Notes: generated by a model not told the origin, from the sequence alone. Counted from the stretch's first letter, positions 25,605 through 28,862 are shown. The stretch: DNA of 64,000 nt from Candidatus Heimdallarchaeota archaeon (GCA_030603365.1 JAUVXV010000015.1:40421-104420), one strand, 5' to 3'. Program-made: numbers and translations.

Positions 25605-25850
25605 TCAAGATAGATATCTCTCTAGAATGTTAATAATATGTTGTTCTACAATTATCTCGTAAATAGGATCTTTATTCGTTAAAATTATGATATTCATGTT
25701 TTTCTCTGGTATCAAAAACATCATAGTAGCAATACCATTTGCTCTACCACCATGACCATACCACTCAATATCACCAAATTTACCTAGTTGACATCCGTAC
25801 CCATAATCACCATAATTACTAGGAACTATATCGGAATGAGGATTTTTCAT
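25605..25850 (-). pseudogene. C-terminal remnant of a beta-lactamase-family serine hydrolase
   Basis: YGYG...WYGHGG..G....MFLIPEKNMNIIILTN present; SxxK/YxN half missing. Confidence 0.7.
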
Positions 25851-27368: not shown

Positions 27369-28490
27369 ATGAATAAGAAATTTACGATTGATGAATCTGA
27401 CAAAGTAACTGTCAAGATTATAAAAAATCGTTATATGGATTTTCTTAAAGATCCAAATGTAGTTGGAGTAGCTGTTGGTAGAAAGATACGTGATGGCAAA
27501 GTGACAGATGAACCTTGTATTACTTTTTTTGTAGCTAAAAAAATAGTTAATGAGAAAAAAATACTTCCTGAATTTCTTTTACCTCAGACACTTGAAGAAG
27601 ATGCTGTAGAAGTACAGAGTGATGTAGTAGAGACTGGTCATATATATGCATATGCGGCACATACTTCTCGAGAACGTCCAGCGGTACCTGGTGCTAGCAT
27701 TGGTCATGTTGATGTAACAGCAGGAACGTTAGGAGCAATAGTAATTGATGATAAATCAAAAACCCAAGTTATATTATCAAACAACCATGTTTTAGCAGAT
27801 AGTAATAGAGCCTCTACAAACGATGATATTCTGCAACCAGGTAAAGCTGATGGAGGAACCGTTCCAAATGATGTCATTGGAAATTTACTCAGATTCAAAA
27901 CAATTGATTTTGCTGGAGGTACAAATTACATTGATGCTGCTATTTGCAGCGTGAAAAAGCCTAATTATATTAGTAATACTCCCCATGATGGTATACCAGC
28001 TCCATCGCCTAAGACTCAAGCAGTTGGTTTACTTTTTGCTGGATCAAGTACTCAAACTATAATAAATCCTATCGGTATTGTTCTCAATGAGCTTAAAATC
28101 TCTTTACCTGCAGGTTCTACAATTGAAGGTAGTATTGGTATGAATGTTCAGAAAACTGGTCGAACAACAGGTGGAACAACTAATACAATAAAGAACATAA
28201 ATGCAACAGTTAGAGTTAATTATGGCTCTGCTGGAGAAGCAGTTTTTAGCGACCAAATTGTAACTGGTGACATGTCTGACGGCGGTGATAGCGGTTCTTT
28301 AGTTGTCAAAGGAGGAGCTGGAGCACCAGATGAACCACCAGATAAACCACCAACAAAACCTGGTCCTTGTCCTTGTGGAATTTTCGCACTAGTAGATCCC
28401 CAATTAGACTATACTACAAGTAAAATAGTATTCAATGCATTTAAAGCAAAAAGATTAGCTAAAAAGGAACTGAAGAATAAGAAACAATAA
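27369..28490 (+). CDS. Trypsin-like (S1, NAL1-like) serine protease with N-terminal pro-like domain, no signal peptide
   Basis: TAGTLG, LSNNHVLA (His), ILQPG, IDAAI (Asp), KTGRTTG, GDSGSL (Ser). Confidence 0.85.
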   Translation: MNKKFTIDESDKVTVKIIKNRYMDFLKDPNVVGVAVGRKIRDGKVTDEPCITFFVAKKIVNEKKILPEFLLPQTLEEDAVEVQSDVVETGHIYAYAAHTSRERPAVPGASIGHVDVTAGTLGAIVIDDKSKTQVILSNNHVLADSNRASTNDDILQPGKADGGTVPNDVIGNLLRFKTIDFAGGTNYIDAAICSVKKPNYISNTPHDGIPAPSPKTQAVGLLFAGSSTQTIINPIGIVLNELKISLPAGSTIEGSIGMNVQKTGRTTGGTTNTIKNINATVRVNYGSAGEAVFSDQIVTGDMSDGGDSGSLVVKGGAGAPDEPPDKPPTKPGPCPCGIFALVDPQLDYTTSKIVFNAFKAKRLAKKELKNKKQ

Positions 28491-28622
28491 TCTTTTTTTC
28501 TTTTTTTTATTATATATTATTGTGCATACTAGAGATGCATTTAAAAAAAGCTACACTTTCCCAGAAATATAGGTTGTATATATCTTAAAGAAATTAAAGG
28601 AAAAAATAGGTGATTTATCTTC

Positions 28623-28862
28623 ATGAGAGATCCTTATAAAACAGCTTCAGAAGTATTGGAAAGGAATAAACAGAACATAATGAATATTAGCGGAGTCCAT
28701 GGTATTGGTGTTGGTAGAGGTAGTGATTATGGTGGAGAAGACAAGCCTTGCTTTGTTGTTTATCTAGATACAAATGCGGATCAATCTGTTATTCCAAAAG
28801 AAATTGAAAATATACCAGTTCATATTGAGATTACTTCTCCTTTCAGAGCTTTGGATGAATGA
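28623..28862 (+). CDS. Stand-alone homolog of the N-terminal domain of the upstream protease
   Basis: GVHGIGVGR..DKPCFVVY..IPKEIENIPVHIEITSPFRA aligns with NVVGVAVGR..DEPCITFF..LPQTLE..SDVVETGHIYA; SD-like aggtga upstream. Confidence 0.72.
   Translation: MRDPYKTASEVLERNKQNIMNISGVHGIGVGRGSDYGGEDKPCFVVYLDTNADQSVIPKEIENIPVHIEITSPFRALDE

What the first reader, a model, noticed from the sequence alone, without database searches (positions are those of the whole stretch)
27369..28862. Cytoplasmic NAL1-like protease followed by a free-standing copy of its own N-terminal domain
Seen: the 79-aa ORF aligns along its length with the N-terminal ~95 aa of the protease (V.G..VGR, PC, P...E, V....T/S....A). 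The protease has an intact H/D/S triad, no signal peptide and a Pro-rich linker ending in CPC plus a basic tail. Established: S1 pro-domains act as folding chaperones and inhibitors. Inference: a protease with a trans-acting inhibitor/adaptor (toxin-antitoxin-like or regulated proteolysis switch), 2 kb from the defence island. I do not know of a description of such a pair.
Basis: partly seen in the sequence, partly recalled or inferred. Interest (0 to 1): 0.7.

Follow-up and report, generated by a model that had tools for sequence, protein, structure and literature searches.

The report
NAL1-type protease with separate partner domain
An archaeal relative of the rice yield protease NAL1 sits next to a tiny gene that encodes an old, free-standing version of the protease's own N-terminal domain; this unannotated gene pair recurs across archaea and bacteria, so the small protein is almost certainly a dedicated partner of the enzyme, though nobody has tested what it does.

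Summary
Both ORFs are real: a 373-aa protease at 27369-28490 and a 79-aa ORF at 28623-28862. Direct BLASTP does not link the small protein to the protease's N-terminal domain, but profile methods do (hhalign 92.8%, E 3.8e-7). That domain corresponds to the "ATP-binding domain" of rice NAL1.

It is not a decaying fragment. dN/dS is 0.15-0.24, like the protease's. It belongs to a family of 60-130-aa stand-alone proteins (138 representative clusters) with no Pfam model.

The pairing is conserved:
- In a 301-genome sample of the archaeal phylum, 17 of 19 stand-alone copies lie beside a NAL1-like protease on the same strand.
- In 80 mostly bacterial protease loci, 50 have one within 400 nt on the same strand and 5 carry it fused to the protease C-terminus. 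The commonest spacing is a 4-nt overlap.

A tree puts the small proteins apart from the N-domains, so the duplication is ancient. Most end exactly at G-x-[ILVF]-x-A-[QLF], where the protease's N-domain ends.

The protease fold is closest to NAL1, then α-lytic proteases. The small protein's best, weak, fold match is the α-lytic pro region.

My reading is a dedicated pro-domain-like partner. A toxin-antitoxin or defence role is not supported.

This scan flagged the same pair at least seven times on other DNA. I found no paper on it.

The parts
27369..28490 (+). NAL1-like S1 serine protease gene, 373 aa
   Evidence: ORF. Pfam NAL1_N scores 33.4 bits against a cut-off of 27; Nal1_C scores 23.6 against 26.1. 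phmmer to rice NAL1 structures gives E 4.6e-11. The AF2 model (pLDDT 87) has NAL1 as its top PDB hit at E 1e-15. At least 7950 homologues were found.
27381..27656 (+). N-domain of the protease (residues about 5-96), equivalent to the ATP-binding domain (aa 89-172) of rice NAL1
   Evidence: Window residues 32-145 align to about 113-239 of the 582-aa NAL1 chain 8has_A; domain limits are from PMC12012508. It keeps K39 and K58 at the columns of NAL1 R120 and K139. Those columns are 97% and 100% basic in 84 N-domains.
27666..28328 (+). Protease domain with triad H140 (27786-27788), D189 (27933-27935) and S308 (28290-28292)
   Evidence: H140 and S308 are invariant and D189 nearly invariant in A4. 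Foldseek ranks NAL1 first, then α-lytic protease, SGPB and NAPase.
28329..28490 (+). Lineage-specific C-terminal tail (Pro-rich, CPC, basic helix) in place of the roughly 210-aa helical, Cys-rich domain of the closest relatives
   Evidence: Relatives at 65-67% identity are 531-537 aa and diverge after GGAGAPD. No remnant of that domain was found in the window or in the genome. The tail has no homologue among the fetched proteins. pLDDT is below 50 at residues 322-351.
28491..28622 (+). 132-nt AT-rich spacer: oligo-T run right after the stop codon, A/T boxes (for example TTTAAAAAAA at 28540-28549), AGGTGAT at 28608-28614, which ends 8 nt before the ATG
   Evidence: Direct reading. That the small gene has its own promoter and ribosome-binding site is an inference; the σ70 scan does not apply to an archaeon.
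28623..28862 (+). 79-aa stand-alone paralogue of the protease N-domain (partner protein)
   Evidence: ORF. Profile homology to the N-domain. It belongs to a family of 138 representative clusters, mostly 60-130 aa. Orthologues in G017 (77 aa) and G180 (78 aa) are intact, with dN/dS 0.15-0.24. AF2 gives pLDDT 88 and an α-β-β-β fold. The C-terminus FRALDE carries the family's terminal motif.

Best explanation
The two genes encode one functional unit: a cytoplasmic NAL1-type serine protease and a small non-catalytic partner that is an ancient paralogue of the protease's own N-terminal domain.

My most likely mechanism is that the small protein binds the protease domain the way a detached pro-domain would. 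It would use the β-sheet face that its paralogue, the NAL1 ATP-binding domain, uses to contact a neighbouring protease domain. It would also use its precisely conserved free C-terminus. Binding would gate or inhibit the enzyme, and possibly help it fold, until the partner is displaced or degraded.

Shown here:
- homology of the small protein to the N-domain;
- purifying selection on the small gene;
- conserved adjacency, translational coupling and natural fusions;
- co-divergence with the partner protease;
- loss of the NAL1 ATP-site residues in the small protein;
- the conserved C-terminal end.

Inferred: physical binding, the binding site and the inhibitory effect.

I put about 0.8 on 'dedicated partner that binds the protease' and about 0.4 on the specific pro-domain-like gating mechanism.
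For: Conserved pairing:
- In the archaeal phylum sample, 17 of 19 stand-alone small ORFs lie next to a NAL1-like protease on the same strand, in both gene orders and in four family codes, f1, f5, f11 and f19.
- Of 80 genome-contig loci from many bacterial phyla, 39 have the small ORF directly downstream, 9 directly upstream and 2 within 400 nt upstream. Five more carry it as a C-terminal fusion. The commonest spacing is a 4-nt overlap, seen 24 times across both locus sets.
- Further fusions of a protease domain with one or two small domains: P0141, P0152, P0161, P0200, P0205, P0245.
- No other neighbour is conserved.

Selection and co-inheritance:
- dN/dS is 0.15-0.24 for the small gene and 0.11-0.26 for the protease.
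- Mantel correlation of divergence over 65 pairs: small protein against partner N-domain r 0.65, against partner protease domain r 0.38, each reached by 0 of 2000 permutations.
- Small and fused-C domains form a group apart from N-domains: 5 label changes on the tree against a shuffled mean of 54.

C-terminus:
- 59 of 74 small proteins end 0-2 residues after G-x-[ILVF]-x-A-[QLF], exactly where the N-domain of the protease ends and its linker begins.
- Fused copies also end the polypeptide there.

Structure:
- The protease model's best folds after NAL1 are α-lytic protease, SGPB and NAPase. By my own knowledge, not tested here, these are made with N-terminal pro regions.
- The small protein's top hit in the structure-only search is the α-lytic pro region (2pro_A: Z 5.4, rmsd 3.5, 69 residues aligned). 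The NAL1 ATP-binding domain scores Z 4.0 and the 'α-lytic protease prodomain-like protein' 4hlb scores Z 4.0.

Literature:
- The α-lytic pro region works in cis or in trans (PMC2289522).
- In NAL1 the ATP-binding domain contacts the neighbouring protease domain to build the trimer (PMC12012508).
Against: - No binding or activity data exist, and no complex prediction could be run here.
- All fold matches of the small protein are weak (Z below 8, Foldseek E at least 0.05). The α-lytic pro-region resemblance may be only a common α/β arrangement.
- No member of the small family hits the Pfam pro-region model at E 0.1 or better.
- The protease keeps its own N-domain, so a second copy is not obviously needed for folding.
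- 18 of the 80 loci hold no small ORF at all. A further 7 have one only more than 400 nt away or on the opposite strand.
- Two archaeal small proteins of 122 aa have no protease within 1.5 kb.
- Arrays of 2-4 small domains without a protease domain exist.
- A stand-alone domain ending at its domain boundary is partly expected.
- In this window the genes are 132 nt apart with a likely terminator and promoter between them, so stoichiometric co-expression is not assured here.
- Correlated divergence is expected for any linked genes.
Confidence: 0.4

Rival explanations
1. Assembly subunit. The small protein is a structural, non-inhibitory component of a hetero-oligomeric cage. It adds a second N-domain-like module per protease subunit, for substrate recruitment or to close the cage, much as plant NAL1 uses extra N-terminal segments to build its hexamer.
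For: NAL1 is a cage of two trimers in which the ATP-binding domain contacts a neighbouring protease domain (PMC12012508). Translational coupling suggests roughly equal amounts of the two proteins. Stable C-terminal fusions, some with two small domains in tandem, look more like accessory domains than like a releasable inhibitor. The prokaryotic proteases lack the plant N-terminal segment, residues 1-88.
Against: Many family members lack a partner. The strictly conserved free C-terminus is not explained by this reading. The oligomeric state of any prokaryotic member is unknown.
Confidence: 0.27
2. Toxin-antitoxin-like or antiviral module. The protease is a latent toxin or effector and the small protein its antidote or sensor, as the first reader suggested from the nearby defence island.
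For: It is a self-contained two-gene cassette with no other conserved neighbour. Its distribution is patchy: 21 of 301 genomes in the phylum sample, and 2 of the 25 genus genomes searched, the window's own included. Both gene orders occur. The window's pair is less like that of a same-genus genome (60-62% identity) than that genome's pair is like one from another genus (76-78%), which suggests lateral movement. The window copy lies 2.3 kb from an HD-CE/TPR gene.
Against: Neither protein hits PADLOC. In G017 and G180 the pair sits beside a polyprenyl synthase gene. Covalent fusions of the two parts are common, which is unusual for a toxin and its labile antidote. The eukaryotic relative NAL1 is a regulatory housekeeping protease (PMC12012508).
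Confidence: 0.08
3. Dedicated substrate or precursor. The small protein is cut or consumed by the protease, for example to release a peptide or to act as a degradation tag, rather than regulating it.
For: Adjacency is tight, and the tail motif resembles the N-domain-to-linker junction of the protease.
Against: The small protein is predicted to be a compact, well-folded domain (pLDDT 88) that is conserved along its whole length. It has no leader-and-core layout. Fusions place it at the very C-terminus with nothing to release.
Confidence: 0.07
4. Independent function. The small protein belongs to a general small-domain family that merely tends to sit near these proteases, or the ORF is a decaying duplicate.
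For: Some members occur without a protease nearby (G078 and G158) or as arrays of small domains only. No Pfam model covers the family.
Against: Adjacency in 50 of 80 and 17 of 19 cases, fusions, co-divergence and dN/dS well below 1 argue against chance linkage or decay.
Confidence: 0.05

Closest known systems
Rice NARROW LEAF 1 (NAL1) serine protease (PDB 7Y77, 8PMM, 8PME, 8HAS; Pfam NAL1_N PF25608 and Nal1_C PF25819; PMC12012508)
   Same: The layout is the same: an N-terminal α/β domain (the ATP-binding domain of NAL1) followed by a chymotrypsin-fold protease domain with a His/Asp/Ser triad. Neither has a signal peptide. NAL1 is the best match by sequence (E 4.6e-11) and by structure (E 1e-15, about 340 columns). 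The prokaryotic N-domains keep basic residues at the columns of NAL1's ATP-phosphate ligands R120 and K139.
   Different: NAL1 is a single gene, and the NAL1 paper read here mentions no separate N-domain partner. The window protein lacks the plant N-terminal segment (residues 1-88), scores below the Nal1_C cut-off (23.6 against 26.1) and appears circularly permuted in its second barrel. Its oligomeric state and substrates are unknown.
α-Lytic protease and its pro region (PDB 2PRO, 3PRO, 4PRO; related streptogrisin-type S1 proteases)
   Same: The protease domain's nearest folds after NAL1 are α-lytic protease, SGPB and NAPase. The small protein's top match in the structure-only search is the α-lytic pro region (Z 5.4). 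That pro region can act in trans (PMC2289522). From my own knowledge, it stays bound as an inhibitor with its C-terminal tail in the active site, which would parallel the conserved free C-terminus seen here.
   Different: The α-lytic pro region is 166 aa, is part of the same secreted precursor and is cleaved off and destroyed. Here the module is about 80 aa and cytoplasmic, it is encoded by its own gene, and the protease also keeps a covalently attached copy. There is no sequence-level match to the pro-region family. The fold match is weak.
4HLB, 'α-lytic protease prodomain-like protein' DESPIG_01740 of Desulfovibrio piger (structural-genomics entry)
   Same: It is a small stand-alone protein with the same kind of α/β fold (Z 4.0, 67 residues aligned).
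   Different: A profile of the small family detects no sequence relationship to it. Its genomic context and function were not examined here.

Membership tests
NAL1-type serine protease (protease gene) | N-terminal NAL1_N domain (PF25608) above the curated cut-off | tested here: met
   33.4 bits against a cut-off of 27, residues 31-77.
NAL1-type serine protease (protease gene) | Nal1_C protease domain (PF25819) above the curated cut-off | tested here: not met
   23.6 bits against a cut-off of 26.1. It is a homologue by phmmer (E 4.6e-11) and by fold, so I call it NAL1-like rather than a strict Pfam member.
NAL1-type serine protease (protease gene) | Chymotrypsin-fold domain with an intact His/Asp/Ser triad | tested here: met
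   H140 and S308 are invariant and D189 nearly invariant in A4. The AF2 model has pLDDT 87. Its top hits are NAL1, followed by α-lytic-type proteases.
NAL1-type serine protease (protease gene) | ATP bound by the N-domain (NAL1 R120, R122, K123, K139) | tested here: inconclusive
   K39 and K58 occupy the R120 and K139 columns, which are 97% and 100% basic in 84 N-domains. The R122 and K123 columns are not conserved.
NAL1-type serine protease (protease gene) | Hexameric cage built from two trimers | not testable with these tools
   Only single-chain prediction was available.
NAL1_N domain family (small ORF) | Match to PF25608 | tested here: not met
   The small ORF has no Pfam hit at E 1 or better, and none of 61 family members hits any relevant Pfam model. 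Homology to the N-domain shows only by profile comparison (Prob 92.8%, E 3.8e-7) and HMM cross-hits. One Atlas cluster of look-alikes carries NAL1_N on 34% of its members.
α-Lytic-protease-type pro region (foldase and inhibitor) | Pro-region fold | tested here: inconclusive
   2pro_A gives Z 5.4, rmsd 3.5, 69 residues aligned. Foldseek gives probability 0.8-0.9 but E 0.16-0.26. Scores at this level can reflect only a common arrangement.
α-Lytic-protease-type pro region (foldase and inhibitor) | Needed for folding of the protease and inhibits it through its C-terminal tail | not testable with these tools
   The only indirect evidence is the conserved free C-terminus.
Toxin-antitoxin or anti-phage defence system | Match to a known defence or toxin-antitoxin family | tested here: not met
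   PADLOC has no family at E 0.01 or better for either protein or for the two upstream ORFs.
Toxin-antitoxin or anti-phage defence system | Toxicity of one partner neutralised by the other | not testable with these tools
   This needs expression experiments.

The most novel reading that the evidence does not exclude
The small protein is a pro-domain encoded by its own gene. It would act as a trans-acting foldase and tight C-terminal-tail inhibitor of a cytoplasmic α-lytic-like protease, giving a widespread bacterial and archaeal proteolysis switch. The plant NAL1 'ATP-binding domain' would then be a retained, uncleaved relative of that pro-domain.
Probability: 0.3. Interest if true: 0.75.

Novelty: new variant of a known kind. 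Interest (0 to 1): 0.55.

Why it matters
NAL1 is a rice yield gene whose protease mechanism was solved only recently. Its prokaryotic relatives number in the thousands and have not been studied. Most of them turn out to come with a separately encoded, sometimes fused, paralogue of the N-terminal domain. That points to a two-component protease whose regulation could be tested directly with two small soluble proteins.

If the partner works like a detached pro-domain, it would be, as far as I know, a rare or first natural case of a chymotrypsin-fold protease with its pro-domain on a separate gene. It would also bear on the question of what the N-domain does in NAL1.

For genome annotation, it defines an unmodelled family of small proteins and a rule for naming them.

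Tried and rejected
- Direct BLASTP of the two window proteins found no N-terminal alignment. Profiles were needed.
- The word-based homologue search for the small ORF found only two near-identical proteins. The exhaustive HMMER search was needed.
Matching contig lengths suggest that P0009/P0125 and P0011/P0128 are further pairs, but this is unverified.
The first metagenome scan, with the single protein, found nothing. The second gave two loci, one of them another pair.
- I considered whether the small ORF is the split-off C-terminal part of a longer protease, because relatives are about 490-537 aa. I rejected this: it aligns to their N-domain, not their C-terminal domain, and no remnant of that domain is in the window or the genome.
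- Searches of Pfam, NCBIfam, PADLOC and PDB sequences with the small protein or its family found nothing meaningful.
- Five literature searches found no description of prokaryotic NAL1-like proteases with a partner gene.
- The σ70 promoter scan is uninformative for an archaeon.
- No complex prediction was possible, because only single chains can be folded and no coordinates are returned.

Full report
**The observation.** The window holds a 373-aa ORF at 27369..28490 and a 79-aa ORF at 28623..28862, both on the + strand and 132 nt apart.

Pfam finds NAL1_N in the larger protein (33.4 bits, cut-off 27, residues 31-77). It also finds a sub-threshold Nal1_C (23.6 bits, cut-off 26.1). It finds nothing in the small one.

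Profile methods do:
- hhalign of a three-sequence small-ORF alignment against the first 100 residues of 120 protease homologues gives 92.8% probability and E 3.8e-7 over small residues 3-78 and protease residues 5-96.
- The small ORF hits the N-domain of a 67%-identical relative of the protease at E 6e-7.
- HMM cross-hits are reciprocal.

The triad H140/D189/S308 sits in invariant or nearly invariant columns. Neither protein has a hydrophobic leader. The Pro-rich/CPC/basic tail is present.

**What the protease is.** It has at least 7950 homologues, mostly 485-540 aa.

By sequence its only solved relatives are rice NAL1 structures (E 4.6e-11). Window residues 32-145 align to about 113-239 of the 582-aa NAL1 chain. 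The Pfam "NAL1_N" domain is therefore the ATP-binding domain (aa 89-172) described in PMC12012508. In NAL1 that domain contacts the neighbouring protease domain to form the trimer.

An AF2 model (pLDDT 87, pTM 0.82) has NAL1 as its top PDB hit (E 1e-15, about 340 columns). The next hits are α-lytic protease, Streptomyces proteases and NAPase.

The window copy is unusual among its closest relatives. Proteins 65-67% identical are 531-537 aa and carry a helical, Cys-rich C-terminal domain. The window protein diverges after GGAGAPD into a 52-residue tail that is disordered and then helical. No remnant of the lost domain is in the window or the genome. Natural short forms of 311-332 aa exist, so the truncation need not inactivate the enzyme.

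The genome is archaeal: ribosomal protein S8e is present, and in the control genomes only archaea have it. Earlier notes of this scan call it a Heimdall/Asgard archaeon. I did not test that.

**What the small protein is.** An exhaustive profile search found 138 representative clusters at E 1e-3 or better. Of these, 108 are shorter than 135 aa. None of 61 members matches a relevant Pfam family, and a profile of the family finds no solved structure.

AF2 gives a confident α-β-β-β domain (pLDDT 88). Its fold matches are all weak:
- the top hit of the structure-only search is the pro region of α-lytic protease (Z 5.4);
- the NAL1 ATP-binding domain scores Z 4.0 and 3.8;
- a stand-alone "α-lytic protease prodomain-like protein" (4hlb) scores Z 4.0.

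Compared with 84 protease N-domains, the 78 small or fused-C domains have relaxed the N-domain's near-invariant residues. These include the basic residues at the columns of NAL1's ATP ligands R120 and K139: 97% and 100% basic in N-domains, 48% and 58% in the small family. The window's small protein has Gly and Asn at those two columns. It therefore probably does not bind ATP the way NAL1 does.

**Is the pair conserved?** Yes, widely.

In 40 relatives, only G017 (same genus) has both genes. A 301-genome sample of the phylum gave 21 genomes with a hit. ORF-level HMM searches of the fetched loci showed that 17 of 19 stand-alone small ORFs lie directly beside a NAL1-like protease on the same strand:
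- protease then small, with a 9-nt gap or 4-nt overlap, in family f11;
- small then protease in f5, f19 and, within f1, in G017 and G180.

A genome-contig scan with a protease alignment returned 80 loci. Almost all are bacterial: Streptomyces, Micromonospora, Pyxidicoccus, Anaerolineae, Desulfobacterales, Calditrichia, KSB1, Omnitrophota, Gammaproteobacteria and others. Among them:

| Arrangement | Loci (of 80) |
|---|---|
| Small ORF directly downstream, same strand | 39 |
| Small ORF directly upstream, same strand | 9 |
| Small ORF 151-400 nt upstream, same strand | 2 |
| Small domain fused to the protease C-terminus | 5 |
| Small ORF more than 400 nt away, same strand | 5 |
| Small ORF on the opposite strand | 2 |
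| No small ORF in the locus | 18 |

The commonest spacing across both locus sets is a 4-nt overlap, seen 24 times.

The representative set adds further fusions: a protease domain with one or two C-terminal small domains, some with an N-terminal Ig domain. It also holds arrays of 2-4 small domains alone. No third gene is conserved around the pair; the largest other cluster covers 7 of 80 loci.

**Selection and history.** Between the window, G017 and G180, the small gene has dN/dS 0.15-0.24 and the protease 0.11-0.26. dS is near saturation, so these values are rough.

A tree of 161 domains needs only 5 changes between the labels "N-domain" and "small or fused-C", against a shuffled mean of 54. 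The duplication is therefore old rather than repeated locally. With 88 columns, many forks in this tree are unresolved.

Across 65 pairs the small protein's divergence tracks that of its partner: r 0.65 with the N-domain and r 0.38 with the protease domain, each reached by 0 of 2000 permutations. This shows co-inheritance. It does not show contact.

The pair is patchy: 2 of the 25 genus genomes searched have it, the window's own included. The window's copy is less like G017's (same genus, 60-62% identity) than G017's is like G180's (another genus, 76-78%). That argues for lateral movement or old paralogous lineages.

In G017 and G180 the order is polyprenyl synthase, then the small gene with a 4-nt overlap, then about 300 nt, then the long protease. 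In the window the order is protease then small gene. The spacer between them starts with an oligo-T run and holds A/T boxes and an AGGTGAT that ends 8 nt before the ATG. The small gene is therefore probably transcribed on its own here; this is an inference.

**A feature that bears on mechanism.** Of 74 stand-alone small proteins, 59 end 0-2 residues after the motif G-x-[ILVF]-x-A-[QLF]. In the proteases the same motif, typically LRA[LFQ], is followed by a conserved linker (Q-x-x-T-D-R-W-R-P) that leads into the protease domain. The C-terminally fused small domains also end the polypeptide at this motif. The window protein ends FRALDE.

A stand-alone domain is expected to stop near its domain boundary. 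Such exact, conserved ends nevertheless suggest that the free carboxy-terminus matters. From my own knowledge, the α-lytic pro region stays bound with its C-terminal tail in the active site, and it can act in trans (PMC2289522).

**Interpretation.** The evidence firmly supports a two-gene functional unit: a NAL1-type protease plus a dedicated non-catalytic paralogue of its N-domain.

I consider a pro-domain-like gating or inhibitory partner the most likely mechanism (about 0.4). A structural cage subunit is second (about 0.27). Neither can be separated without complex prediction or experiments.

The toxin-antitoxin or defence reading is weak. There are no PADLOC hits, there is no defence context in the sister genomes, and covalent fusions are common. 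The defence island 2.3 kb upstream is most simply coincidental.

**Novelty.** I found no paper describing the pairing, and no Pfam model covers the small family. The same kind of pair has been flagged and followed up at least seven times by this scan on other genomes, with the same conclusion. My tests reproduce those claims independently here.

Specific to this window are four things:
- the archaeal host;
- the gene order swapped relative to sister genomes;
- the loss of the protease's C-terminal domain;
- the apparent separate promoter.

Noticed in passing
window 28329-28490: The protease lacks the roughly 210-aa helical, Cys/His-rich C-terminal domain of its closest relatives (P0004-P0008, 531-537 aa). 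In its place is an unrelated 52-residue tail: Pro-rich, then CPC, then a basic helix. No remnant of the lost domain was found in the window or in the 89%-complete genome.
   Followed up: partly
window 28020-28310: The segment AVGLLFAGS...helix (protease-profile positions 213-243) lies before KTGRTTG...GDSGS in the window protease and its long relatives. In the short, roughly 335-aa family members it lies after GDSGS. This fits a circular permutation of the second barrel in the window's subfamily, as another first-stage note proposed.
   Followed up: partly
L003:1501-2699 (G017) and L013:1495-2729 (G180): In the two sister genomes the small gene overlaps the stop codon of a polyprenyl synthase gene by 4 nt, and the protease follows about 300 nt downstream. 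There the small gene is translationally coupled to an isoprenoid enzyme gene, not to the protease.
   Followed up: no
proteins P0137, P0139, P0143, P0199, P0207 (arrays); P0161, P0200, P0245 (Ig + protease + two small domains): The small domain also occurs as tandem arrays of 2-4 copies without any protease domain. It also occurs twice in tandem behind protease domains that carry an N-terminal Ig-like domain. The genomic context of these proteins could not be fetched.
   Followed up: no
L025 (G078) and L026 (G158): Two archaeal 122-aa members of the small family carry a roughly 40-residue N-terminal extension. They end differently (…SEFEKEKMIIRK…) and have no protease within 1.5 kb. They may be a diverged, protease-independent branch.
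   Followed up: no
84 protease N-domains from loci L011-L120: The columns matching NAL1's ATP-phosphate ligands R120 and K139 are 97% and 100% basic in prokaryotic N-domains. Nucleotide or phosphate binding by this domain may therefore be ancestral and general, not specific to plants.
   Followed up: partly
window 25605-25850 (-): An 81-aa ORF looks like the C-terminal fragment of a β-lactamase/esterase-type serine hydrolase (…GHGGRANG…IILTNKD…). It is probably a gene remnant between the defence island and the protease locus.
   Followed up: no
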